This document shows positions 14,329 to 64,000 of a DNA stretch of 64,000 nucleotides, one piece after another (positions within the stretch are counted from its first letter, which is position 1; each line of letters opens with the position of its first letter). The notes beneath the pieces are model-generated. The model saw nothing but the letters and a program-made list of their open reading frames with translations, was not told where the DNA came from and did no database searches. The position numbers and the translations under genes were made by a program. The stretch is from Chiloscyllium plagiosum (taxonomy: Eukaryota): contig NC_057752.1 in the NCBI RefSeq assembly GCF_004010195.1, positions 826,123-890,122 of the forward strand, in the 5' to 3' direction.

Positions 14329-14503
14329 AAATTTCACCCCTCTAGACACACTAACACAGTTACTGCTAGTCTCCTGTACAGCCACATTGTGAGTAGGCAC
14401 TTCAAGGCTTAAATACAACTTTGTCCACAAAATTGTTGAATTCTTGCTGTTTTAATCACTGGTCATAATTGCCAAGATATCACTATGACTTGTCCTGTTG
14501 TAG

Positions 14504-14759
14504 GGAAGAAAGGGAGAACTGGATCAGAGCAAAGTATGAGCAGAAATTGTTTCTTGCATCCTTGAAATACCGCGACATTCCCATTGGAAAGCAGCTGTTT
14601 CGAGCTGTTATGGAGAAGGACCTTCACAGTATTTTACTACTGCTTGCTCATGCCAAAAAGGAGCACATCAATGAATGGACTGAAGATAAAGACAAACGGA
14701 CAGCTCTGCATCTCGCCTGTGAACGAAAGGATGTAGTAGTGACACAGCTTCTTGTCTGG
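14504..14759 (+). CDS. AGAP2: AGAP2 exon, ArfGAP end and ankyrin repeat (REERENWIRAKYEQ...RTALHLACERKDVVVTQLLVW)
   Basis: gttgtag| acceptor, TGG|gtaggt donor, phase 2 to 0. WIRAKY and TALHLA motifs. Confidence 0.96.
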
Positions 14760-15868
14760 GTAGGTGTTATTCAGCTGGCACAGATCTTGTTCCTCCGTGT
14801 TGGTTCTGTTCCACTCTAATTTGCTGTGCTTTCCATTGTCCTATCCCTGCCGAAAAGGTTTCATGTTCATGTCATCAAGCTAACAGTTTCTAATGCTAAT
14901 TTACCTGGGAGGGTAAAATTGATCAATTTTCAGTTGTGTTTACTTATTGTAGAAATGAGATGAATAATCCTTCCTGTCCTTTAATTTAGCTTGCTGTGGA
15001 CAAGCCATTCATAATGGACATTGTCTCCAACCTAGACTTGTACCATCCTTGCCAGTCCAACCTGTCACCTCATCTCCAACTTCAAGTCATTTACAAAAAT
15101 GTGGCCTAAGGCCTATCAGAAGAGCAAAGCTGGAAGGCAGTAGGACATGCTGACCCAAAGTCAACATTTCTGTTTTAGTAGTCAATTAATGGCATGTAAT
15201 CAAACTGAGATTTGTCAGGTCACTGGGTTATAATCTATAAGCCCCCTTCTCAACAGCACTATGGGTGTCCCCTGTTATGGACTAGGCCAGACCACTCAAA
15301 AACATTCTTGAGCAGGCAACCCAGACTATAACTTTGCAATTTGTTTTGGTAAGTGTACAGTGAAAATTACCCAGAGTAAGCTAGCTAGGTTGACGACTAT
15401 GTTTTAAAACAGACATTTTTTTTTTCACAAAATGATACAATGAAACACAAAGAACAGAATAAAGAACCCCTACAGAACTCAGTCTATCCAAACGAGACTT
15501 AATTATACTGTTCTGAATATACACAAAAGTCCCAATAAGCAAACCCCCTTAAAAACCAGTATACATGGAACAGATGCTTACAGGTTGAAGTTAGAAGGGC
15601 AGAAGGAGAGAGAGAGATTTTCCACACAGCTCACTGTTGATCTCCCAACTAGTTCTGGACTGAACTGAACTGCTAGAAAGCTGACCACTCCCCTTTCATT
15701 ATACGGGTCACTTCTAAAACATGACCACTTTGGCCTGAAGTCTCATCTGTTTACATATAAACAAAAGGCCTCTCAAAATTATTTTCCTCTCTGTACCAAA
15801 CCAGACTGATCGGTGCCCAGTCTGGTTTATTACCCCTCTGAAAAACAAATCAAGGACACAGTATCCTT

Positions 15869-43029: not shown

Positions 43030-43620
43030 TCCTTTGGCTTTGGAACTCTGACTCGGAAGGTGGTAGAAGGCAGTCATTATTTTTAAGATGGTGGTAGACA
43101 AATTCTTATTAGACAAGGGGAGGTTATTGGGGTTAGATGAGAATATGGAATACAGAACGCAAACAGATCAGCTGTGATCTGATTGAATGGTAAAACAGGC
43201 TCAAGTGGCCAAATTATCGTCATCTGCTCCTATTTTGTGTGTATGTTTATATGATAAATACTCCTTAAAACCTCTTTCACTAAGTGTTTGGTCACATTGC
43301 CTAATGCTATGTTAAGTTTTGTCTGATTATTCTTTGGGACTATGTTATTAGGTTAAAGGTGCTACAAGCAGCAACAGACTGTGTTATCTTAATGCCTTTC
43401 AGTTTTATTGATTTAATTTCAAGCCCTATGTTGGAATGCAAAGATCCATAAAGTTTTGAAAAATGTTATTTTTGTAAAATCTTGTAACGTGACTGACCTA
43501 ACTGTTCTCATTTGCAGGCTTGTCTTTATACAAGATAATGTTCATGGAACAGTGTAAGGCAAAGTACTTTATTGGCCAGCCAATTTGCATTTAGTGGAAG
43601 TTTCCAAAGCACTAACGGAG

Positions 43621-45759
43621 ATGGGTATGAGAATTAAACTACACAGTGCTGACCACCCTAATAACCTTCTTAAGGAACTTAATAAGTTTAGGTTGTCCGA
43701 AACCATGTGTGATGTAATCATCATGGTTGGCAACAGGACATTTTCAGCACACAAATCAGTGCTTGCATGTGCTGCTGGCTACTTCCAGAAGCTCTTTCTG
43801 AATTCTGAGGTTAATACTGCAAGAACATACGTGGTAGACTTCATCACCCCGGCAAATTTTGAAAGAATCTTGAATTTTATCTATACAGCTGAGCTTTTTA
43901 CTGATCTCATTAATGTTGGTGTTATCTATGAGATGGCAGAGAAGTTGGGAATGCAAGATCTTCTGAAGGCTTGCTACTCCACGTTTCCTGACTTGGAAAA
44001 GACAGAAACCAATAAACCAACAGATCAATCACCCGAAGGCTATGCACCTCTCACTGGGGCTTCAAATGACCAAAACACCCCCATGTCAGACTCCAGGGGC
44101 CCAGGCCCACAATTTTGTCAAAACAGAAGTTACATAATGCAGGTTGAAGTAGGAGAGAGTTTTAAAAGTGAAGAGCGAAATCTTGTGAATGAAAATGGCC
44201 CAAGTATGCCAGTGATGTACCAACAGTCAACAAAAACTGAAGATAACCTGGAGATGGAATACAGCCAATGCACAACAAGTGAGAATGTGCCTTTGACCTC
44301 TAATAAAGGCCCATGTGAGCTGTATGAAATACAGAGTAATGGATATTATAATCAAACCAGTTTACTGGTCACTGGAGAATCTCTCAAAGAGAGTAGTAAT
44401 TCCTGTGTCAGTAACAATGTCGACCTCCAGGTTCAATCAATGAAGGAAATGGAGTGCATGCAGTTTGATGGTATTGAACAGGATGGCCTTAATTTTGATG
44501 ACCATCAAGAGAGCAGAGGTCCTTCTGAAGAAATAATCGAGTTAACAGATGACAGTGAAGATGACAATCTTGTCTGTGTTAAGGATAGTAATGGTGAAGG
44601 TAAGAGTATGCCATGCCAGGTGTGTGGCAAGGTCTTGGCAGCCAACATAGGAATGATTAGGCAACACGGTAAACTCCACATTGATGCAAAAGAGGGGCTG
44701 TGTACTGTGTGTGGCGCCAAGTTCACTGATAGGAGCTCTCGAATCACCCATGTTTTGTCTCATGTTGGAATTTTTCTCTTCTCGTGTGACATGTGTGAAA
44801 TGAAATTTGTAACACAGTGGCAAGTGGCTGGACACAGGAAAGGGAAGCCACATGATGCTAACATTATTGTCCAACCAAATACCATCTTGCCTGCTGAAGC
44901 TAATTTTGGTGGCTCTCCCACAGAACTGTTTTGTGCTGTCTGTGGAAAGACAGTGACTAAAGACTATCTTGCTGTGAAAGACCATATCCTTTCCCATCTT
45001 GACATGAAAAGTCTCTCCTGTTGTGTCTGTGAGCAGCCATATAGATCAGTCTGTAGCTTAATGTGGCATGTTTTATCCCACATGAATATATCAATCTTTT
45101 CCTGTTCTGTATGTGGTAATAGCTTTGTAGACCGAACTGTTCTAGAGCAACATATGGCTTCACACCAGGGTATGGAGTATTTATATGAATGTAATTTCTG
45201 CTGTAGAAAGTTTCGGTTAGAAGCCTCTTATCAGAACCATGTGAAGATACATAAGAGGAATAACTTGGATGGCACAAAAGGTCTAACTACTCCACACCAG
45301 TGGCTCAAAAAAACCTTAACAACATCACCATCAGATGAGTCTACAAGTGATGGACATGTGCCTGGTGTACACCAAGAGACCCTTCTGACCCTTCCCTCAA
45401 ACCAAGGCAAAGCCAACTCCAAAGGGAACTGGTATGAATGTGAATTTTGTGGTAAAAGGTTTTCCCATTCTAGTGAGTTTCAGTATCATCTCCGAATCCA
45501 CTCAGGAGAGAAGCCCTATGAATGCAAGCTGTGCCACAAGTTCTTCAGGGGGCGATCGACTGTCAAAAATCATCTAAAGACTCATTCAGGTGCCCTTATG
45601 TATTGCTGCACGGTTTGCCAGAAGTATTGTCCCACCTTGAACCTTATGATTAAACATGTGGAGATGCACAAAGATGGGGGCCTACCTCCTGACTTTAACA
45701 TTGCACAGACATTCATGTACATCGTGCATTCCAAACAGTCAGTAAAAATGATGGACTAA
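43621..45759 (+). CDS. ZBTB39: Zinc finger and BTB domain-containing protein 39 (712 aa, single coding exon)
   Basis: Starts MGMRIKLHSADHPNNLLKELNKFRLSETMCDV, nearly identical to the recalled ZBTB39 N-terminus. BTB domain, multiple C2H2 fingers, HSGEKPY linker and C-terminal LPPDFNIAQTFMYIVHSK. Splice acceptor tttgcag ends at 43517. AATAAA at 45826. Confidence 0.95.
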   Translation: MGMRIKLHSADHPNNLLKELNKFRLSETMCDVIIMVGNRTFSAHKSVLACAAGYFQKLFLNSEVNTARTYVVDFITPANFERILNFIYTAELFTDLINVGVIYEMAEKLGMQDLLKACYSTFPDLEKTETNKPTDQSPEGYAPLTGASNDQNTPMSDSRGPGPQFCQNRSYIMQVEVGESFKSEERNLVNENGPSMPVMYQQSTKTEDNLEMEYSQCTTSENVPLTSNKGPCELYEIQSNGYYNQTSLLVTGESLKESSNSCVSNNVDLQVQSMKEMECMQFDGIEQDGLNFDDHQESRGPSEEIIELTDDSEDDNLVCVKDSNGEGKSMPCQVCGKVLAANIGMIRQHGKLHIDAKEGLCTVCGAKFTDRSSRITHVLSHVGIFLFSCDMCEMKFVTQWQVAGHRKGKPHDANIIVQPNTILPAEANFGGSPTELFCAVCGKTVTKDYLAVKDHILSHLDMKSLSCCVCEQPYRSVCSLMWHVLSHMNISIFSCSVCGNSFVDRTVLEQHMASHQGMEYLYECNFCCRKFRLEASYQNHVKIHKRNNLDGTKGLTTPHQWLKKTLTTSPSDESTSDGHVPGVHQETLLTLPSNQGKANSKGNWYECEFCGKRFSHSSEFQYHLRIHSGEKPYECKLCHKFFRGRSTVKNHLKTHSGALMYCCTVCQKYCPTLNLMIKHVEMHKDGGLPPDFNIAQTFMYIVHSKQSVKMMD

Positions 45760-49710: not shown

Positions 49711-50779
49711 ACAGGAATCGAAGGTAATAGAACACTATTTAATATGATTAATCTATTTTGATTTTTCTTCTTAATTGTCTGTGTTGAACCTTTGAGCTGT
49801 GAATCCATGTGTTATATTGCAGTACCTCACCTAAGTGACCTTTATCCACCTGATTCTACTCGTGTTCAGTGTCTCCATGCATTCTGAATTCTGTCCAGTG
49901 GCATCTTCTGAGTGAAAATCATGGGTGAGCGTTTTCTTTCCCAATCGAATTCCAGGGTATCAAAGCCAGTTGTAGCTCCCAGCATTGCTCAACATTGAAT
50001 GGTGGATCAAACCTGGACCCTTTAAAAGAACTGTCAGAATATTTATTTTCCACATATACTTAAAATAATACTTATGCATTGCATTTTATTATAAATGATA
50101 TTGTTGTAATGTTTTTGCGAGGTTTTGAAGCGCAATCCAAGTTTGTTTCTATTTTGGATAGTTGACGATGTTGTAAAGTATTAAGTGGAGCCTTTAAAAC
50201 ACAGCGAAATAGTTTGAGGGAAATTGGGCACCAAGTGAGAATTTGGACAAGGTGGTTCGACGGACATTGAGTGGGGCCGTGGAAGGTTTTGAATGTGGGA
50301 GAGATGCAAGCTAGGAGGTTTGAAAAGAGGAACAGGTTATTGAATAGTCTAGAATCGGAACGAACAGTGAACATTACACAGCAGTTTTAGGTCTTTGGGT
50401 CTCCCAACAACACACACACAAAATAAATCTTTATGAAGTTTGTACTCAGCGAGGTCCTAAAATAGTGGGTGTGGATTTGATATCCTAAAATTACTTCAAT
50501 TTGACATTTACCTAGTTGTAGAGGTGGGGTGTAAACAGTGGCCTGGATTTTCTGACCTGACCTGTTTGTGGTAAGAGATCCCGGAGGAGAATAATGCAGG
50601 ATGTTGGGAGGGAAGTGATCAGGGCCGTCAAACTGACTTGTGCGTCCATCGGTTATCTACATGCCTCAAATCTTCAAACAAATGGAAAGCATACCTGGGG
50701 AGGGGGAAGATGGTGGGCTTTGGGAACTCTCCCGGTGTGATTCGGGATATCACAGAGTTTGATTAAAAGCTGCTGAGGG

Positions 50780-50890
50780 GAGAAAACGGTTGCCTGGCAA
50801 CCACGGCCTGGAGTCTGCGTGCTGTCGTCAGTTGAAGAGCCAATGGAAACGCACATTATTTGAGACCTCCACCAATGAACGGGCGGGGAG
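50780..50890. promoter_or_regulatory. Candidate promoter: RFX X-box, two CCAAT boxes, GC box
   Basis: GGTTGCC-T-GGCAACC palindrome at 50788-50802. CCAAT at 50840 and 50872. GGGCGGGG at 50881-50888. Locally raised CpG. Confidence 0.6.
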
Positions 50891-52585
50891 AGAGAAAGCT
50901 GCAGTTGGAAATGCTAAGGACAGGGGCTTTCAGTGGCAAGTCTTGAATGTATAGTCTTTTCTGATCTAGTCGTTCATCAACTTATTTGGACATGTTATGA
51001 CACATCTCCACGACCATCATGTCCAGAGGTGTGACTTGAACCTGATCTTATGGTCTAGAGGTAGGGACGTTACTACTGAGTCAGCATCCTCGAATACCAG
51101 AATGTTCTTTTAACTAACCTCGATATGTTATGGCACACTTCCAGGGCAGGTGGGACTCGAACCGAGCTCCCCTCATACCGTATATGATAAATTTCATTCC
51201 CTGTCATATTCATCATATTTAACTCCATAATCCTCCAGTCCACCTCTTTTGCCCTTTGACCCACTATTCAACATATCTTGATTTCCTTTTCATTTGCTCA
51301 CTACTTCTACCCTCACCCCCCCCCCCCCCCCCCCGCACACCAAAAGTTTGTCAAGAAACTAGAGGAGTCTCCTGCCTATTTTCTCCTTCAATCCACTTCC
51401 CATCCCTACAACTCGATACATTTGTTCACAGTTGTATGATAAAAATCAGTTTGAACTGAAGAAAAAGTATTTACTTTTCCCTTTATGTATCTCTGTTTGC
51501 CCGTCCCTCGCCACGTCCGCCCTTACTGTTTCACTCTGACTTTTGTTTCAAAATTTTAACTTTAAAGCAACAACCTTAACTTCAGAAATCCATCTAATCC
51601 AATTTACTCCAGTATTAGCCAATGCAGCCGCTCTAATTTACTGTTTAAAACATGCAGGCTGAACATATATTCCACTATTATTTTTCCCAACAATTTTTAA
51701 TTTCAGTCTATTCAGCTTTGTTCTTGCCCCATTAAAGCCTGGCAGTTAATTATTTTTACTCTGGATTAATCGATGTCATATTCTACCATCACCTTCAACC
51801 TTATGGTTCAATGATTACCGCCCCCTTAATATTCACTCAATCAATACTTTTTCTTTTCTGTACGCAGACCTCTTAATCTACTTGGCCCACCTCATTTCCA
51901 AGAACCAGCTCTAGCATTGCCTTTTTTGTTTGACTGGACATAACTGCAGTAGAAAATTCTCCCAAACACATTTAGGAACATTTGTCCTTTGCTACCATTA
52001 TCCCAGACAATGTATTCAATTAAAATTCCCAATTATAACTGTGGTGTTTACACCTCTCTCAAATTTACTTGCAGATTTGCTTCTCCATATCCTTCCCACT
52101 AGGTCGTGGTCTGTATATCACAGAGCAAGGTAATTCCACCCTTCTTATTCCTTGGGTCTAGTCAAATTGATTCTGACCTTGAACTCTTTGAAACATCCAC
52201 ATTTTCCAAAACTGCAATGCTCTCAACCAAAAATGTCACCCTTCTCCTTTCCTCCTTCTTTACTTTTCTAAACACCCTGTAACCAGGAATATTTAATATC
52301 TGGATCTGCCCTTAAGCTAGGTCTTATTGCTGAAACATCATAATATCATTTGGCAATCTGTGTCTTAAGTTCATTGCATTCCAGAACTGCATGAAGAAGC
52401 TTTTCTTCCTCTCACTTTTGCTAGTTTGACCATTGCTTTCAATCTATGCGCTGTTGTTCTTGATCCTTACATGAAGGGGAACAGTTTCTTCCTATCCACT
52501 CTGTCCAGATTCCTCATGATTTTGAATACCTCTATCAAATCTCCTCTCATTCTTCTCCTTTGCAAGGAAAACAATCCCAAAATAT

Positions 52586-53010
52586 TGTTGGGCTTGTATA
52601 CCCTTGAGTTTCGAAGACTGAGAGGGGATCTGATTGAGACGTATAAGATTATGAAAGGATTGGACACTCTGGCAGTAGGAAACATATTTCCACTGATGGG
52701 TGAGTGCCGAACCAGAGGACACAGCTTAAAAATACGGGGTAGACCATTTAGGACAGAGCTCAGGAGAAACTTCTTCACCCAGAGAGTGGTGGCTGTGTGG
52801 AATGCTCTGCCCCAGAGGGCAGTGGAGGCCCACTCACTGGATTCATTTAAGACGGAGTTGGATAGAGCTCTCAAAGATAGTGGAATCAAGGGTTATGGAG
52901 ATAAGGCAGGAACAGGATACTGATTAGGAATGATCAGCCATGATTATATTGAATGGCGGTGCAGGCTCGAAGGGCTGAATGGCCTACTCCTGCATCTATT
53001 GTCTATTGTC
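52586..53010 (+). mobile_element. Young HER1/CR1 LINE 3' fragment inserted in an antisense CR1 fragment
   Basis: Open LGLYTLEFRRLRGDLIETYKIMKG...RTRGHSLKIRGRPFRTELRRNFFTQRVVAVWNALP and a (CTATTGT)n tail. A closely similar copy lies at 58905-59245 (-). Confidence 0.9.
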
Positions 53011-54105: not shown

Positions 54106-56535
54106 AAAATAAGGCCCAAGATATGTTATGCTTTACAAACTGTTCTCTCAATATGTTCAGTCACCTTCAATATTTTTTTAAAATTTAACCTATTTTTCTA
54201 ATCAACCTGTTCAGATATGTTATTACGCACCTCTAGAGCAGCTGTCTGGAATGTTACCTCACTACTTAAATAAGGCAACATTGTAAATGCAACTATGTGT
54301 ACCAGTGTGTGCCAGTAACTTGGTTTTAAATCTGCAAATATATACTAACACCATTTCCTTGGTTTAAAGCAGTATCCTTTCCCATATTTAGTACATAATC
54401 AAGAAACAAAAGTGTTCTTTACAATTTGCCTTGAGAGAATTTTGGAATTCCTTTTCATAGTCTTTTTTCTCATACTCCCTCTTTGCTTTTCCTGTGTTTT
54501 CTCTCACCTTCCCTTTGAAAATTCTGTATTCAGCCTGATGCTCAATTATATTTTCTACCTGACATCTATCATAAGCAGACTTTTCTTCTTTATCTTAGCT
54601 TCTGTCTTTTTTGTATCCTGGGAACTCTGGCTTTGTTTGCCCTACCTTTACCTCAAGTGAATATATCTTTGATTGTGCCTGAACCATCTCTTCTCTGAAG
54701 GTATCCCATTCTTCAATGATCACTTTTTTAACAAACCTTTGACTCAAATTTACTCAGCCCAGATCCATTGTTCCCCCAATAAATTATTTTTGCTCCAGGT
54801 TGCTCTTTGAGCTTTTCCACAGCCATCCAGAATCTTCTTATACAATGATCATTGTTCTCTCAATGTTCACCCATTGACACTTGATCTACTTGACCACATT
54901 CCCAAGAAGCAGGTCTAGCAGGGTCTCCTTTCTCATTGAACTGGACACTTAATGCTATAGAAAATTCTGCTGAGCATACTTTAGAAACACTTGCCCCTTT
55001 CCGCCCTTTACTACTATCCCAGTCTATATTCAGATAATTAATGTGTCCCATTATAGCTTTTGCATCTCTCTAATTTCTTTACATATGTGTTCCTGTATAT
55101 CATCCCCGCTAATTGGTAACCTATAATCTACATTGAGCAATGTAATTGCACATATTTTTATGTACCTTAGCTCCAGCCCTTGAATCCTCTGAGACATATT
55201 CTTCCTCCAGCACTGCAATGCTCTCCTTGCTCAACACCACCACCCTTCCCCATTTTTCCTTTTCCTACATTTCTAAGCACCTGGTATCCAGGAATGTTCA
55301 ACACCAGTTTTTGCCCTTCAAACCAGATTTCCATATGCAGTTTAATCCCTTGAGCCTGTTCTGCCATTCAAATAGGTTTTGACTGATGTTTCTCAACCCT
55401 GCTTACCCATATTTGATCTGTTTCCTTTCATATCCTTCCAGGTCTACAATCTAAATACCTTAATCTCCAAAGCTCACACAGGATATGAGTCTGAAAATCT
55501 ATTGACTTGTTCCAACAGTTTTGAACAACTTGTAATGGCCCAGAATATGAAACTTTGTTTTGTCAGTAGTCAGCTAAACTGCTAAGCAGAATGCCACTGG
55601 TCCTACACTTGAAAGGCACTAGTCTGTTTGTGCCACAGGAACAATTCATGCATGCACGTGCAATGCCCCTCATTTATCTGATCCTATTGTGTATGTTTAT
55701 TACAGCTTTCAGAAATGAAGGGCTAAGCCTTTGGGTTCTTAAAAAAAATTCATTGACGTGATGTAGGTGTCACTGGCTAGGCCAACATTTTTTTCCCCAT
55801 CCCTAGCTGCCCATAAGATGATGGTTCTGGTGAGCTGTTGTCTTGAACTGTTGCAGTCTTGTGTGATATAAGGACACCCAAAATGCTGTTCGGAAGCAAC
55901 TTCCAGGATTTTGACCCAGCAATGGTGAAGGAATATCCAAGTCAGGGTGGTGAGTGGCTCAGAGAGGAGCTTGCAGGGAGTGGTGTTTCCACGTATCTGC
56001 TGCCTTTGTCCTTCTAGATGGTAGTGGTTGTGCGCTTAGAAAGTGCCGACTCAGGAACCTTGCTGAATTTCTGAAGTGCGTCTTGAAGATGGTACACACT
56101 GCTGCTACAGTGTGCCAGTGGTGGAGGGAGTGAGTGAATGTTTGTTGATATGGTGGTAATCCCACAGGTTGCTTTGTTCTAGGTGGTGTTAAACCTGAAG
56201 CGTTGTTGGAGCTGCACCTATCCAGCAACTGCAACTTAAAATTCTGATGCATCCTTGGAGATGAAGCTTGTTTTCTGCTGTAACCTAAAGCCTTTCAAAA
56301 CATAGACTTATGCTGCTGCAGCAACGCCAGGGCATTGCAGCTCACCAGTCTCTTTGATTTCCTTTACAATGCTCTGTTCCCTTAGATGGGGGGGGTCCAT
56401 GATTGTAGTTTGTTTATGGTGTGCACAAGGGCAGTGTCTCTCTCAAGCTTTATGTGCTACTGTGAACTAAGGTTATTTACCCTTCAGCATTTTCTCTGTT
56501 CTTTTCATTCGGTTTTCTTTTTTTTTCAGAAAGTG

Positions 56536-56632
56536 ATGTCATCATTGAATAATTCTTGGTCCTCATCTCAGGATGAAACTGAAAGTTCCAAGCTTCTCAG
56601 AAAGTCGAAGGAGTCACCGTTCATTCCATTTG
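56536..56632 (+). CDS. HIGD1C: HIG1 domain family member, first coding exon (MSSLNNSWSSSQDETESSKLLRKSKESPFIPF-G)
   Basis: Long polypyrimidine acceptor ending cag at 56529, ATG at 56536, TTG|gtatga donor in phase 1. SKLLRKSKESPFIP matches the HIG1 motif (recalled HIGD1C SRLIRKSRDSPFVP). Confidence 0.82.
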
Positions 56633-56707
56633 GTATGAATCTCTCTGAGGCATAAAACAGTACCATCTATTACAGTGGTGTCTCAGTATCAGCTCTTTCA
56701 CATGTAC

Positions 56708-57663
56708 AGGGTGTAGGTTTGCTCGCTGAGCTGGAAGGTTCATTTCCAGATGTTTTGTCACCCTACTAGGTAACATCCTCAGTGGGCCTCCGGGCGAAGC
56801 ACTGCTGCTGATTCCTGCTTTCTATTTATATGTTTGGGTTTCTTTGGGTTGGTGATGTCATTTCCTGTGGTGATGCCATTTCCTGTTCTTTTTCTCAGGG
56901 GGTGGTAAATGGGATCCAAGTCAATGTGTTTGTTGGTGGCATTCCAACCAGAACTCTATGCTTCTAGGAATTCTCGTGCGTGTCTCTGTTTGGCTTGTCC
57001 TAGGATGGATGTGTTGTTCCAGTTGAAGTGGTGTCCTTCCTTATCTGTATGTAAGGATACTAGTGAGAGGGTCATGTCGTTTTGTGGCTAGTTGATGTTC
57101 ATGTATCCTGGTGGCTAATTTTCTGCCTGTTTGTCCAATGTAGTGTTTGTTACAGTCCTTGCATGGTATTTTGTAAATGACATTAGTTTTGCTTGTTGTC
57201 TGTGTAGGGTCTTTCAAGTTCATGAGCTGCTGTTTTAGTGTGTTGGTGGGTTTGTGGGTTACCATGATGCCAAGGGATCTGAGTAGTCTGGCAGTCATTT
57301 CCAAGATGCCTTTGTAGGGGAGAGTGGCTAGGGTTTCTGGACGTGTTTTGTCTACTTGTTTAGATTTGTTGCTGAGATATCGGCGGACTGTGTTCATTGG
57401 GTACCCATTCTTTTTGAATACACGGTATAGGTGATTTTCCTCTGCTCTGTGTAGTTCCTCTATGCTGCAGTGTGTGGTGGCTTGTTGAAATAATGTTCTG
57501 ATGCAGCTTCATTTGTGGATGTTGGGATGATTGCTTCACCTGGAGGCCCACTGAAGATGTTACCTAGTCGGGTGACGAAATGTCTGGAAATGAACCTTCC
57601 AGCTCAGCAAGCAAACCTACATCCAGAACCTCAACCTGAGCTACAAATCTTCTCAAAACTCGC
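56708..57663. mobile_element. Penelope-like element (family A), GIY-YIG on minus strand, inverted terminal repeats
   Basis: Minus ORF 57041-57397 contains NVIYKIPCKDCNKHYIGQTGRKLATRIHEH. Hammerhead-like motifs at 56746-56785 (-) and 57548-57587 (+). Confidence 0.9.
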
Positions 57664-58255
57664 TTTACGTATACAGTATGCAGTCGGTAACAGGGAATGA
57701 TTCACTCCCAACTGGTACAGTATGGTCTCTGTGTGTGCTAGTATTATGTCCTGTACGAACACGGGTCGACCCGCTCAATTAACTAGACGGCTGTTTTGTG
57801 ATGCCGAGTAACGCAAACACCGGTTGTTCAATTTCTGCACTGGCTGAGGTTGCCATGAAGGACTCTCCTCCTCAACCTCACCCCTTGCCTGAGGTGTCAT
57901 GACCTTCAGGCTAAAACGCCACCAGTTATGGACTATGGCAGATTTACCTTTTATATGTACACGACACTGTGGGTAAAAGAGAATGATTCACTCCCGTCTG
58001 GTACAGTACATGCAGGGTGTGTCTCAGTTTCAGCTACTGTACATGTACGCTATACTGTGAATAGAAGGGTATGATTTACTCCTGTCTGGTACCATATGAT
58101 GTGTCTGTGTTAGTTCCTGTAGATATAGAGTACTCAGGTAAACAGGATGGAATCATTTCGCCTGGTACAGTATGTGTCTCTGTCTCAGCTCCTGCACATG
58201 TACAGTACACAGTGGAGAAAAGAGAGCGGTTCATTCTCACCGGGTGCTGTAGTCA
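57664..58255. repeat. Degenerate ~75-90 bp tandem repeat interrupted by a SINE
   Basis: Recurring GATTCACTCCC(G/A)..TGGTACAGTA...GTCTCAG..CCTGTACATGTAC units at ~57699, 57986, 58073 and 58153. Similar sequence lies at ~56660-56708. Confidence 0.6.
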
Positions 58256-58904
58256 CTAATTGCTTGTGTCAGTGGCTATATGTGCATGATGTGCAGAAAA
58301 GATTTATGAGGGATTATTATGTTGAGTTTAAAGAGAAAGTGCAACTGGTAGGCAGAAGCCTCCATGTCTTTCTCCACAGTAAATGCTGACGCAAAATATT
58401 CACTTAGAATCTCATCCATCTCCTGTGGTTCCACACATAGATGGCCTTGTTGATCTTTAAAGGGCACTATTCTCTCCCTTGTTGCTGTTTTGCTCTTAAT
58501 GTACTTTTTCTTTAGAATATTTGCAGTTCTCCAGCTCTCTGGCTTACCTGAGTGTCTATTGGAAAATTGTGGCTATAATGTCTGTAGCTTCTACCCCTTA
58601 ACAAGCTAGGATCCCTTCCATCCAGACTGGGTAACTTATCACCTTTAACTACAATCAGCCTTTCTGGTACCACCTCTTCATCTATTTTTATCCTATCTGG
58701 TATCTCAGCACCCTCCTCTTCCTTGGTAAACACTGATATAATGTACTTGGGCATCAGTAGATTTCCATTTTAGACCCTATTCAGCCCCAGCACTCCCCTG
58801 AAAACCTTTTAAGGTGCCTTTGGATTATCTTTCTATCAGCTGCTGTTTTGTGCTGTCTCTTTGTCCCTCTCACTTGCTTTTATATTTCTGAATAGTTGTG
58901 TTCA

Positions 58905-59245
58905 ATAGACAATAAGTGCAGGAGTAGGCCATTCTGCCCTTCGAGCCTGCACCGCCATTCAATATGATCATGGCTGATCATCCTTAATTAGTATCCTGTT
59001 CTTGCCTTATCTCCATAACCCTTGATTCCACTATCCTTGAGAGCTCTATCCAACTCTTTCTTAAATGAATCCAGAGACTGGGCCTCCACTGCCCTCTGGG
59101 GCAGAGCATTCCACACAGCCTCCACTCACTGGGTAAAGAAGTTTCTCCTCATCTCTGTCCTAAATGGTCTACCCCGTATTTTTAAGCTGTGTCCTCTGGA
59201 TCAGCACTCACCCATCAGCGGAAACATGTTTCCTGCCTTCAGAGT
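58905..59245 (-). mobile_element. Young HER1/CR1 LINE 3' fragment
   Basis: Reverse complement closely matches 52670-53010. Confidence 0.9.
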
Positions 59246-59767
59246 TCCAATTCAGCTTGATTCCTCCTTCTATTATCAAACAAATATTGGTCATATGTCC
59301 TTTTTTTCCCCCTGCCTCATCCTTCTGTAACTCCATCATCCAGGGAGCTCGGGCTCTGTTTGTCCACCTATTTTGAATCTGAATCATCGCTTCTTTAAAG
59401 CTTCCCCATTACCTGATTACAGGATTGTTTGGCTGTCGTTGGTTCCAAATTTACCCAGGCTACATCCTTCCTCAATTCATTAAAATTAGTTTTGCTCTCA
59501 TTCAGTATTATTTTATTTCTAGATTGCCTTCCTCATAACTATTCCAAGCTGATGACATTTGTGATCACAATTCCAGGGGAGCTGCACAATTGTGTCATTC
59601 TGCTCTTGAGCCAGTTCATTCCTGAAGATCAGATCATCAAATAGAAAACTCACTGATCCTGAACATTCTCCTGAATATGTTTAGAATTCTCCCTAAGCAC
59701 TATATTCAATATTGGGTAGTTAAAGTTTTGTATTATCTATACTTTTCTATACTTTATTATTATAAAA

Positions 59768-60000
59768 GGCATTAGTTTAGCTCAGTTGGCTGGATTGTTG
59801 ATTTACAGAGCGGTGTGACGCCAACAGTGTGGGTTCAATTCCCATCACGAGTTTGAGGTTACCATGAAGGACCCTCCTTCTCAAACTGTTCCCTTGCCTG
59901 AGGTCTGGTGGCCCTCAGGTTAAATTACCACCAGTTGCTTCTCTCTAATGAGAGAGCAGCCCCTATGCTCTGGTAAGACTATGGCGACACAACAACAACT
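59768..60000 (+). mobile_element. tRNA-derived SINE distinct from HE1 (second copy at ~57762-57950)
   Basis: A box TAGCTCAGTTGG and B box GGTTCAATTCCC. Both copies share the body TGAGGTT.CCATGAAGGAC...CCCTTGCCTGAGGT...CACCAGTT...GACTATGGC. (CAA)n tail. Confidence 0.7.
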
Positions 60001-60034
60001 GTTCCACAAAGCAGACTTGTGAGCAAAGTTAGAG

Positions 60035-60351
60035 CTTAGCGAGTTTTAAGAAGATTTGTAGTTCAGGTTGAGGTTTTGGATGTAGGTTTGTTCACTGAGC
60101 TGCAAGGTTCATTTCCAGATGTTTTGTCACCCTATTAGGTAACATCTTCAGTGGGCCTCCGGGCGAAGCAAAGAACAGGAAATGACATCACTACTGGAAA
60201 TGATGTCACCAACCAAAGAAACCCAAAGATATAAATAGAAAGCAGAAATTATTAGCAGTGCTTCGCCAGAGGCTCACTGAAGATGTTACCTAGTAGGGTG
60301 ATGAAACGTCTGGAAATGAACCTTCCAGCTCAGCGAGCAAACCTACATCCA
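60035..60351. mobile_element. Non-coding palindromic Penelope-derived mini-element (two inverted family-A terminal repeats)
   Basis: Inverted arms, no ORF. 10-bp TSD AAAGTTAGAG at 60025-60034 and 60352-60361. Confidence 0.88.
60274..60313 (+). ncRNA. Best-preserved minimal hammerhead ribozyme motif
   Basis: TCA-CTGAAGA-T-GTTACC-TAGTAG-GGTGAT-GAAAC-GTC-TGG: full core, GUC triplet, palindromic ACGU in place of helix III. Confidence 0.78.
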
Positions 60352-60491
60352 AAAGTTAGAGGTCATACAATAAAGGGGACATCTGTAATGTGTATACAAA
60401 ATTGACTGACATAGTAACCACAGAGTAACATATAAAGGACATTTCTGGGGCTTGAGTCAGATTTGTTGTGGAGTTCTCTAGGGGTCACTAT

Positions 60492-60822
60492 TAGAATTTC
60501 TACAGTGTGGAAACAGGCCCTTCAGCCCAACAAGTCCACACCGCCCCTCCAAAGAGTATCCCATCCAGATCCATTACCCTACATTTCCCCTGACTAATGC
60601 ACCTGACCTATACATCCCTGAACATTGTGGACAATTTAGCATGGCCATTTCACCTAACCTGCACATCTTTGGACAGTGGGAGGAAACCAGAGCACCTGGA
60701 GGAAACCCACACAGATGCGGGGAGAATGTGCAAACTCCACACAGACAGTCACCCAAGGCCGGAATCGAACCCAGGTTTGTGGCGCTGTAAGGCAGCAGTG
60801 CTAACTGAGCCACTGTGCCACC
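60492..60822 (-). mobile_element. HE1-type SINE
   Basis: Reverse complement of the HE1 head (GGCAGCAGTGCTAACTGAGCCACTGTGCCACCC) and tail (CTACAGTGTGGAAACAGGCCC). Confidence 0.9.
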
Positions 60823-63347
60823 CCTTGAGATCCTTGCTTTTCCTGATACATATTAATGATCTGGACCTTGGTATACTGAGGACAATTTCAAAGTTTGCAG
60901 ATGATACAAAACTTAGAAGCATTGTAAACTATGAGTAGGACAGTGTAGAGCTCTGAAAGAAGATTGGCAGGTTGGTGTAGTGGGCAGATTGGTGGCAGTT
61001 GAATGCAGAGAAGTGAGAGTTGATTCATTTTAATATGTAGAACATGGAGAGGCAGTATAAAGTTAGGGGTACAATTCTAAAATGGGTGCAGGAACATAGT
61101 GACCTCGATGTATATGTTTATGTCATGAATGGTGGCAGGGCAGGACTAGAGTATGGTCAATAAAGCATGAAGTAATAAGAGCAAGGAGGTCATATTGAAC
61201 CTGTATAAGTCAGTAGTTAGATCTCAACTGGAGCACTGTGTACAGTTTCGGGCACTACGCTGATCACGTGAGTGCGCACTGAAGCGATTTACAAGAATGG
61301 TTCCAGGAATGACACATTTCAGTGAGGAGGATAGATTGAAGAAATTGGGACAGTTCTCCTTTGGAGAGGAGGTGGGTGGTGGTGGTGGTGGTGGTGGTTG
61401 GGGGGCGGGTGGAGGAGGAGGAGGAGGAGGAGGAGGTGGAGGCGTAGTAGATAGGGAGAAACTGTTCCTGTTTGCAAAATGATCGAGAATGAGAGTGCAC
61501 AGATTTCAGGTTATGTGAGAAACTTCACATGATGAGTGGTTTATGGATGCACTGCCTGGAGGTATGATAGAGGTAGATTCAATTGAGGCAAGAGAGCATT
61601 GGATGATTAAATAGAAACAACACTCAGAGGTATGGGGAAAATGCAGGAGGATGGTACTATGTCCGAATGTTACTTTAGAGAGCTGGGGCAAACAGGATGG
61701 GCCAAAAGGCTGCCTTCTGCACTATAATGTTTCTCTAGTTCGCTGGTTCATGCACCTCCCAGTAACTTCCTTGCATATTGTTCCTCAACTCCAACCAAAT
61801 AGATTTTGTCTTTTCTAACTCTGTTTCTAACATGGCAACAGTTTTCTTCATCCAGACTGTGATTCCATCTCCTTTTCTTTCTTCCATCTCTTGCCTGAAT
61901 ACTTTGCACCCAGGAATGGTGAGCATCCAACCCTTCCTTTTTGATTGAACCAGTTCTCCATTATCAGCACTGCATCATAGTCCCACATGGCAATTTGTAC
62001 TTGCAAATCACCAATATTCTTAACATGCACTCCAACTCTAACTTAGACCTCTTCATAATTTCACTGAACCATTTAATTCTGTATTATTTCTCACTTAGTC
62101 TCCAAGCCCTCTATTTCTATTGTGGAATATTATGACTTGGTGACTTAATCCCTTGATGAATTAGTTTGTTCTCACCTCTGTACCTGCATGTGAGAATATC
62201 GGTCCCAACTCTGTTCAGGTTCAACCTGTCCATATTGAACACATTCTTGCTGTCACAGACTGGTCTCCGGAATCTAAAGCTCTTTCTCCTTGGAGTATCA
62301 TGAGTTAGGTCTGACAATGTCATATGCAAATTGAAGCATACCAGTACATCATCACAAGAAGTGATGCAATGTCACATGGTCTTTCACTTGCAGCCTCATG
62401 ACAAGATGAAATCACAGTAAAGTATTTCTTAACTGAAGTTTGTGCTTTTGTTTTTGTATGGTTACCTCTAAATATTCTTTATTTAGGGAGGGGAGGAGGT
62501 GGGGGGGGGGGGGGGGGGGACATGGAGGGGTTCCACTCCTTGGCTGTTCCCTCTCCATTCCTAGCCAGTTTGTACAAACTGGCACTTCACCCAGTCTCCC
62601 TATCCCAAGGACAGAGGTTAATTGGAGCTCATTATGAATTCCCAGCCCTAGGATCTTGATACTGCACTGGGAATTGTCTTTTTTTCATAGAGTCAGTGTC
62701 AGAGCTCAGATACGGGAGAGTAGATCTGTAGAAATAGGATGTCAGTCTTTCAAGTAGACATGGGAGAACGTGAGTTGGTGGCTGGATGATTGGGCTCCCA
62801 AACAGTGTCCAGGTGTCTCATCTGCTTCAAACTAACTGTTCATTATTCACAATTACTGTGGCATAAAGCATCTTTAATTTTTACAGTTAATTCAGTTTAC
62901 GTCATTAAATTTAGTAGCATCCTCTTCCTTTTTTCCCTTTTCCAACTGATTTCAATTTCAGCATTGTTTGTAAAGCTGGGCATTTAGTGAACCCCTCCTG
63001 TCCTTTTCTCTGCTGATAGCTCAGATATTGGCTACCCTGACACTTTCCCCAAGGATCCATTTTTAATGTGAGATTTAACCATGTGGGCTTGCAAGCCCCA
63101 CCAGTGCTGTCTTGACTTTCCAAATTCCTGAACTGGTCTCTTTGATGATATCCCCCTTCCCAGTTCTTGTAAACTGAGGTCAATGGCAAGACTCCAATCA
63201 TTCCCCACCTGTGACCATCAAGTTCAGCAGAGATTGCGAGATGATAACTGGGATTGTAAGTTTGCAAACTGAGGCAGCAATGAGCTAAACTCCTAATGCG
63301 AAAGAACAGTGGTGACCCAGTAATGTTGAAATTTCAATCTTTTGCAG

Positions 63348-63400
63348 GTGTTGCCTATTCTATGTACAAGGATCACATCAGGAAACCTCGGCAAAAATAA
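63348..63400 (+). CDS. HIGD1C: HIG1 domain family member, last coding exon (GVAYSMYKDHIRKPRQK*)
   Basis: cttttgcag| acceptor, phase 1. YSMYKD matches the recalled HIGD1C C-terminus GVLYSMYKDYIRP. Stop TAA at 63398-63400. Confidence 0.8.
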
Positions 63401-64000
63401 CAACCCTCTGCAAAAGTGAGTTTAGTTTTTGGACAGTAGTTGGGCCTGGGAGCATGACTTGTTTAACTGATCTGCCATGGATTTTAGAAGCATGTTATAT
63501 GCCTCATGCTGAGGCTGGATGCGGACAGTGCAGTTTGTTTTCATTAACGTAACTTTAAGGATTTAATAACGTTTTCTTCCTAAGACTGTGGACCTACATG
63601 GGGTCTTCTAATTCCTGAAAGGCACTAGCTATTGGGAGATACAATAGCTTTCTGTAAATTGTCTAAGATTCCTCTTTGGAGGAAAGTGCAGTTTGAGAGA
63701 CTGCAGAGGGTTACTTAGTTTGCTGCTGACAGAGCTGTCAATGTTTGGTGTTTTGTCCTGTTTTTGGATCTGCTCATTGCCACATAACTCCCACTCTTGC
63801 TGTCCAGAAGTCCTCTGCTGTGGCGGCTTGGAGCTATAGGTTCTGCACCTTAGTTTCGCTATCTCTTGCTGACAATTAGTCGGCAGTCCAGCCAATATCT
63901 TCCTACTGTGTTTCTTTGCGTCACTGTTTGCCTACAGCTGTATTTTTCTTATTTCTCAATTGTTCTTCTGCCTCTTTGAAAATAAAACAAGACTGTGTAG

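What the first reader, a model, noticed from the sequence alone, without database searches (positions are those of the whole stretch)
56530..63420. Hidden HIGD1C-like gene that appears to lack its transmembrane middle exon
Seen: intact first (97 nt coding, phase 1) and last (53 nt, phase 1) exons with good splice sites. The 6.7 kb between them is mostly TE and tandem repeat, and by eye I found no exon encoding the expected G.AG...GLYKLK...MS.HL.HMRVAAQGF.VGA segment on either strand. Direct splicing stays in frame and gives a 49-aa peptide (MSSLNNSWSSSQDETESSKLLRKSKESPFIPFGVAYSMYKDHIRKPRQK) lacking the HIG1 membrane helices. A donor-like AAA|GTGAGT sits 15 nt after the stop. Established: HIGD1 proteins are mitochondrial inner-membrane complex IV regulators. 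Inference: lineage-specific exon loss (recent pseudogene or new soluble microprotein) or an assembly drop-out.
Basis: partly seen in the sequence, partly recalled or inferred. Interest (0 to 1): 0.72.

Follow-up and report, generated by a model that had tools for sequence, protein, structure and literature searches.

The report
Shark HIGD1C lacking its membrane exon
This shark assembly holds the first and last coding exons of HIGD1C, a gene needed for oxygen sensing in mice, but not the middle exon that related sharks and rays have; a real recent deletion that would kill the gene is slightly more likely than a sequencing-assembly gap.

Summary
Exons at 56530-56632 and 63348-63415 are the HIGD1C orthologue, next to SLC11A2. 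The 44-codon middle exon is not in the 6.7 kb between them, and whole-assembly searches found only paralogues. All 20 homologues fetched, from 13 shark and ray species including the close relative Chiloscyllium punctatum, keep it. New lead: at 58357-58362 a unique flank joins the inside of a CR1 LINE at a 6-nt microhomology. A contig from a same-species run follows the assembly across this junction without a mismatch, while a related species' contig leaves it there for probably 248 letters. That looks like a real lineage-specific deletion, but the letters were not shown, so it is not known whether they hold the exon. Only 1,733 of 6,715 intron bases were bridged by listed contigs, the run may be the assembly's own source, and this draft drops exons elsewhere. 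Odds: real deletion, dead allele 0.48; assembly drop-out 0.43; working 49-aa microprotein 0.04.

The parts
50710..51062 (+). Likely upstream (5') exons of the gene; approximate ends
   Evidence: tblastn matches to the N-terminal extensions of C. punctatum models P0014 (50710-50985) and P0009 (50997 on), with stops or frame shifts here
56530..56632 (+). First coding exon, ATG at 56536, phase-1 donor
   Evidence: 97% identical to P0009; same-species contig matches 56400-56731 with no difference
56707..57664 (-). Penelope-like element with inverted terminal units
   Evidence: repeat matches and self-matches; weak GIY-YIG hit below cut-off, E 0.0009; the name Penelope is recalled and also noted in e1-8025531
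58357..58362 (.). Candidate deletion junction: 6-nt microhomology between unique flank and CR1 interior
   Evidence: family matches start at or near 58357; hexamer exact in 3 of 11 copies; run X5 contig spans it, run X13 contig of organism B stops fitting at 58362
58357..58506 (-). CR1-like LINE ORF2 fragment cut on its 3' side
   Evidence: 40 scored copies at 83-88% identity; three copies compared run on about 1-1.5 kb beyond this point, one does not; CR1 label recalled
58903..59251 (-). Younger LINE 3' end, not bridged by listed contigs
   Evidence: 92% identical to 52659-53008; contigs of both organisms end just inside it
60036..60357 (.). Pair of Penelope-like terminal units
   Evidence: about 90% identical to 56709-56891 and 57531-57664, inverted
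62487..62519 (+). G-rich tract with a 19-G run behind an acceptor-like AG; alternative, untested place for a mis-join
   Evidence: one of 32 acceptor-like sites, beside the only homopolymer of 10 or more in the intron
63348..63415 (+). Last coding exon (stop 63398-63400) with 15 nt of 3' UTR up to a donor at 63416
   Evidence: 88% identical to P0009; whale shark model P0020 reads through the same stretch into a further exon

Best explanation
This is the HIGD1C locus with its middle exon absent from the assembly, likely because a real, recent deletion joined unique intron DNA to the inside of a CR1 LINE at a 6-nt microhomology (58357-58362), which would leave a dead allele. Shown: the exon is absent, the junction sequence exists in reads of a same-species run, and a related species departs from the assembly at that point. 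Inferred: that the departing DNA holds the exon, that repair was microhomology-mediated end joining, and that the remaining exons would splice in frame to a 49-aa peptide with no membrane helix, unable to sit in the inner membrane or tune complex IV. Whether the deletion is fixed in the species or one allele of one animal is unknown.
For: No middle exon anywhere in 101,977 contigs, though paralogues at 57-59% identity are found. No N gap in the window. X5 record 22 fits 57840-58390 over all 551 letters with no difference, at depth 2.9 like its single-copy neighbours (2.9, 3, 3.5); it runs 34 letters past 58356 and 28 past 58362, and 6 shared letters cannot fuse contigs built from 31-letter words (last step is inference). 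X13 record 14 (organism B, 719 nt, minus strand) fits only 57929-58362; read in its own direction, 248 letters go on past 58362 unlike the assembly, too long for a young high-copy insertion, since contigs here stop 21-30 letters into such repeats. The CR1 piece is cut on its 3' side at that very hexamer, whereas LINE insertion truncates 5' ends (established). The repeat that gives P0001 its alternative tail after the middle exon is also absent from the window and the next 50 kb. C. punctatum carries three private changes (Q12P, H58Y, A73V), a hint of relaxed selection in this lineage.
Against: The 248 letters were not printed; they may be an unrelated indel, and small indels between A and B are common here (32 gap letters in one 589-nt contig). 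The direction of record numbering is my inference from X1 record 1 and three records ending at 57537; read the other way only 36 letters depart at 58362. Organism B is coded, so that it has the exon is assumed. X5 is flagged as a possible source of the assembly; the independent run X1 shows no listed contig across the junction (its record 7 ends at 58216). A similar LINE-LINE junction near 58506 is shared by A and B, so cut LINEs are not rare. Both remaining exons and their splice sites are intact, with one private amino-acid change in 46 positions. Other species also carry private changes (0-8 each), so the three in C. punctatum are not significant.
Confidence: 0.48

Rival explanations
1. Assembly drop-out: the gene is intact in the animal, and a short unique island with the exon was lost when repeats on both sides were collapsed or a gap was closed wrongly; the 58362 difference is an unrelated indel.
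For: Draft assembly of 101,977 contigs with N gaps in 3 of 9 fetched stretches, two within 35 kb of the window. Nramp-family exons that the second C43 copy does not show lie on unplaced contigs C83435, C63035 and C97450, so exons do appear to fall out of scaffolds. Four repeat stretches in 56731-60700 are unbridged and 60701-63347 is untested. All 13 other species keep the exon. Flanking exons and splice sites look healthy.
Against: No N in the interval; no unplaced contig holds the exon; a read-supported, deletion-like junction exists at which a relative has extra DNA.
Confidence: 0.43
2. The deletion is real and the exon-skipped 49-aa peptide is a working soluble microprotein, for instance a decoy for partners of the HIGD1 N-terminus.
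For: Both exons are phase 1, so the join is in frame. The stop lies 15 nt before a donor, so the transcript would likely escape nonsense-mediated decay (established 50-nt rule; inference).
Against: In-frame skipping follows from the ancestral exon phases, which both paralogues share, not from selection. No such short homologue among proteins of 34-111 aa. Best 19-residue hydropathy 0.13 against 1.9 and 1.5 for the full-length protein. No read on exon 1 in about 2% of RNA run X21 (weak, tissue unknown).
Confidence: 0.04
3. The exon is present but too diverged to see, or has moved elsewhere in the genome.
For: Genome searches use a loose first look and withheld stretches read N (tool note).
Against: An exhaustive profile search of the intron gave -5.3 bits; DNA of relative B differs by only about 3% here, far too little to hide an exon; none of 16 open phase-1 candidate exons resembles it.
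Confidence: 0.03

Closest known systems
Elasmobranch HIGD1C-like proteins (e.g. C. punctatum XP_072423278.1, Rhincodon XP_048474749.1, Cetorhinus XP_078390785.1)
   Same: First and last coding exons 71-97% identical to these models in alignment; same phase-1 boundaries; same donor after the last coding exon.
   Different: All 20 fetched proteins keep the 44-residue middle segment with most of PF04588; the assembled locus lacks it.
Mammalian HIGD1C (PMC9635879; section 5 and passages read)
   Same: Orthologous locus beside SLC11A2 (one human SNP is assigned to both genes on chromosome 12 in passages of PMC8538638).
   Different: [quoted passage not shown] The product predicted here has no membrane segment; no shark function is known to me.
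Paralogues in the same genome, HIGD1A-like (C5), HIGD1B-like (C33), HIGD2A-like (C14); labels recalled
   Same: C5 and C33 genes have the same three coding exons and phases.
   Different: Their middle exons are intact, with introns of about 0.4-1.5 kb; they are only 52-63% identical to window exon 1.
Unitary pseudogene formed by whole-exon deletion; also false gene loss in draft assemblies
   Same: Single-copy orthologue with one exon missing and repeats around the gap.
   Different: Nothing in kind; which of the two applies is the open question.

Membership tests
HIGD1C orthologous locus | Closer to HIGD1C-labelled proteins than to paralogues | tested here: met
   97% and 88% to P0009 against 52-63% (exon 1) and 50-60% (last exon) to in-genome paralogues; no tree built; labels are NCBI's, one S. 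torazame member is labelled 1A-like
HIGD1C orthologous locus | Adjacent to SLC11A2 | tested here: met
   Nramp exons on the minus strand at C43:916360-949793, starting 26 kb past the window; human adjacency from passages of PMC8538638
HIG1-domain protein (PF04588) | HIG_1_N domain | tested here: not met
   No Pfam hit for either exon; no PF04588 match on C43; P0009 and P0020 score 60 and 56 bits
HIG1-domain protein (PF04588) | Two membrane helices (PMC10363561 passages) | tested here: not met
   Hydropathy peak 0.13 for the skip product against 1.9-2.2 and 1.4-1.7 in three full-length homologues
HIG1-domain protein (PF04588) | Inner-membrane location and complex IV binding | not testable with these tools
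   needs experiments
Unitary pseudogene by exon deletion | Lesion is real in genomic DNA | tested here: inconclusive
   Junction at 58357-58362 is in reads of X5, but not shown to remove the exon; most of the intron unbridged
Unitary pseudogene by exon deletion | No intact copy elsewhere in the genome | tested here: met
   within the limits of an incomplete assembly
Unitary pseudogene by exon deletion | Fixed in the species | not testable with these tools
   no listed contig of the independent run X1 covers the junction
Unitary pseudogene by exon deletion | Relaxed selection on the remaining exons | tested here: inconclusive
   one private change in 46 positions; no relative's DNA for dN/dS, and 150 nt at about 3% divergence would have no power

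The most novel reading that the evidence does not exclude
A bamboo-shark-like species has lost HIGD1C outright by a recent, fixed exon deletion while its closest relatives keep a copy that may already be decaying: a natural knockout of the complex IV modulator that mammals use for acute oxygen sensing, in a lineage recalled as hypoxia-tolerant, and a direct test of whether HIGD1C serves oxygen sensing in cartilaginous fishes.
Probability: 0.25. Interest if true: 0.6.

Novelty: new member of a known kind. Interest (0 to 1): 0.38.

Why it matters
HIGD1C is required for the hypoxic breathing response in mice and knockouts are viable (PMC9635879), so a natural loss is plausible. A loss confined to one shark, with an intact gene in a close relative, would give a matched pair for asking whether fish-type oxygen sensing uses HIGD1C. 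I found no paper holding both HIGD1C and shark (0; 'HIGD1, shark, hypoxia': 3 unrelated listings; none of 12 listed mention HIGD1C). If it is a drop-out, it matters only as an annotation fix.

Tried and rejected
One search used the wrong frame; its result is void and was replaced. (whole P0001) was swamped by a repeat-derived tail and was replaced; no RNA holder listed; no evidence either way. laid nothing, so 60701-63347 has no read test. A further own-genome protein search aimed at the middle-to-last exon boundary was not run. (proteins longer than 172 aa): 0 of 24 candidates scored. Rfam on 56400-63600: one chance match far below its threshold, no hammerhead at E 0.1, so e1-8025531's ribozyme claim was not confirmed by this search. 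The two Penelope-like units are inverted, not direct, repeats, so they do not explain a deletion between them. The AATAAA near 63981 as poly(A) signal was considered; a further exon is more likely. The acceptor-like site beside the G run at 62487 was considered as a remnant of the lost exon: only 3 letters fit and it is one of 32 such sites. Passages of PMC7677710 were read for background on shark draft assemblies; nothing from them is used. Papers were seen as listings only, apart from those cited as read. No supplements were read.
Full report
Observation. The first coding exon runs 56530-56632 (ATG 56536, 97 coding nt, GT at 56633); the last coding exon starts at 63348 after a clean AG, stops at 63398-63400, and has a GTGAGT donor at 63416. 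Joined by coordinates they give 150 nt, 49 aa. The window has no N. The middle exon is not between them: motif scan and 16 open phase-1 candidate exons, tblastn and blastn with the two paralogue exons, and a profile of 8 elasmobranch middle exons, which scores the intron at -5.3 bits and the paralogue exons at 59.9 and 50.9.

Identity. Protein searches returned HIGD1C-like models; with cluster members these are 20 proteins from 13 shark and ray species, and all 20 contain the 44-residue middle segment. The closest is C. punctatum P0009: 97% over exon 1, 88% over the last exon, against 52-63% and 50-60% for the paralogues on C5 and C33. Nramp-family (SLC11A2-like) exons lie on the minus strand from 26 kb past the window; a human SNP assigned to both SLC11A2 and HIGD1C on chromosome 12 (passages of PMC8538638) fits the same neighbourhood. 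So this is the HIGD1C locus. Its product as assembled is not a HIG1-domain protein: no Pfam hit and no hydrophobic segment (peak 0.13 against 1.9-2.2 and 1.4-1.7 in three homologues). The gene is larger than the finding: upstream exons match near 50710-51062, and whale shark model P0020 reads through the stretch after the stop into an exon matching L009:9560-9656, about 40 kb on and antisense inside an SLC11A2 intron. The donor at 63416 is therefore likely real.

Whole assembly. PF04588 finds three matches over cut-off (C14, C5, C33) among 23 candidates and none on C43. The C5 exon finds itself and C33. The C. punctatum middle exon finds only C5 (59%) and C33 (57%), 2 of 2 candidates. A copy at 90% or more identity would have been found unless withheld or unassembled.

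Reads. One search listed 24 runs. One lay succeeded (56400-60700; X1 and X5 of organism A, X13 of organism B, RNA run X21 of A; only the longest 8 contigs per run are listed). A contigs match the assembly with 0-2 differences over 56400-56731, 57840-58390, 58436-58930 and 59216-59803: 1,733 of 6,715 intron bases. B is about 96-98% identical and colinear in the same blocks, with one exception: record 14 (719 nt, minus strand) fits 57929-58362 with its letters 249-683. Record numbering appears to follow the contig's own direction (X1 record 1 would otherwise start exactly on the first base of my reference and break off inside exon 1; three repeat records end together at 57537), which puts 248 unmatched letters beyond 58362. 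Read the other way, 36 letters depart there. The letters were not printed.

The junction. In A, 58357 is where a CR1-like ORF2 fragment begins: family matches start at query position 92-109, most often 96, which is 58357. Eleven copies were compared: the hexamer at 58357-58362 is exact in 3 and similar in the rest, the bases to its left differ from the window, and three of four pairs checked stay alike for 1-1.5 kb beyond it. So the element is cut on its 3' side, B follows the unique flank through the hexamer and then leaves, and A goes on into the LINE. That is the pattern of a deletion joined at a 6-nt microhomology (inference). X5 record 22 crosses it with no difference over all 551 letters at single-copy depth, so the junction exists in reads; X5 may be the assembly's source, and the independent run X1 has no listed contig there. 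What is not shown is that the exon lay in the removed DNA. The repeat that supplies P0001's alternative tail behind the middle exon is absent from the window and the next 50 kb, which fits a lost segment but also a C. punctatum-specific insertion.

Against. The assembly is a draft (101,977 contigs; N gaps in 3 of 9 fetched stretches), Nramp exons sit on three unplaced contigs, three quarters of the intron is unbridged, indels between A and B are common, and the remaining exons look healthy (one private change in 46 positions). C. punctatum's three private changes, one at an otherwise invariant histidine, are within the range of other species (0-8). RNA says little: X21 has no read on exon 1 in about 2% of the run, and HIGD1C is strongly tissue-restricted in mammals (PMC9635879 section 5).

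Weighing. I started at about 3 to 1 for drop-out. A read-supported, deletion-like junction at which a relative has extra unique DNA is roughly three to four times likelier under a real deletion than as background (my estimate, not computed), which brings the odds to about even: dead allele by deletion 0.48, drop-out 0.43, working microprotein 0.04, hidden exon 0.03. If real, the predicted consequence is loss of function: both helices (PMC10363561 passages) depend on the missing exon, and in mice loss of HIGD1C is viable but blunts the hypoxic ventilatory response (PMC9635879).

Novelty. Exon-deletion pseudogenes and false losses in drafts are both known kinds. I found nothing in print on HIGD1C in sharks (the library lacks most subscription papers). 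Interest 0.38; 0.6 if a fixed species-level loss is shown.

Noticed in passing
L009:9519-9660 (G000:C43 about 929640-929780): Likely fourth HIGD1C exon, antisense inside an SLC11A2 intron; whale shark models P0013/P0020 have lost the stop and read through it as a 62-aa tail, while this genome has stops there. The two genes would overlap antisense over many kb.
   Followed up: partly
G000:C43:14436267-14471357 and contigs C83435, C63035, C97450: A second Nramp-family gene on the same contig whose missing 5' exons seem to lie on unplaced contigs; a third family member on C7.
   Followed up: no
protein P0009 (C. punctatum): Private changes Q12P, H58Y, A73V; H58 is invariant in the 11 other full-length rows compared. 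Isoform P0001 ends in a repeat-derived exon.
   Followed up: partly
window 43558-45759 +: 733-aa BTB and C2H2 zinc-finger ORF, ZBTB39-like by recall.
   Followed up: partly
window 14469-14819 +: Exon with ankyrin repeats, ArfGAP/AGAP-like by recall.
   Followed up: no
window 57900-57960 versus 59905-60000: SINE-like copy with an internal deletion of about 35 nt at 57927; organism B's contig stops fitting there, so this small deletion is likely specific to A.
   Followed up: partly
window 56655-56708, 57665-57760, 57955-58260: Diverged tandem-like units of about 80 nt interrupted by the elements; seen by eye and in 40-nt self-matches, below the TRF threshold.
   Followed up: no
protein database: No HIGD1C-like model from Hemiscyllium or Stegostoma appeared among the hits; may only reflect database content or the word filter.
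   Followed up: no
window 56511: G in the assembly and X5, A in X1 and in organism B: a likely polymorphism in the acceptor tract of the first coding exon.
   Followed up: no
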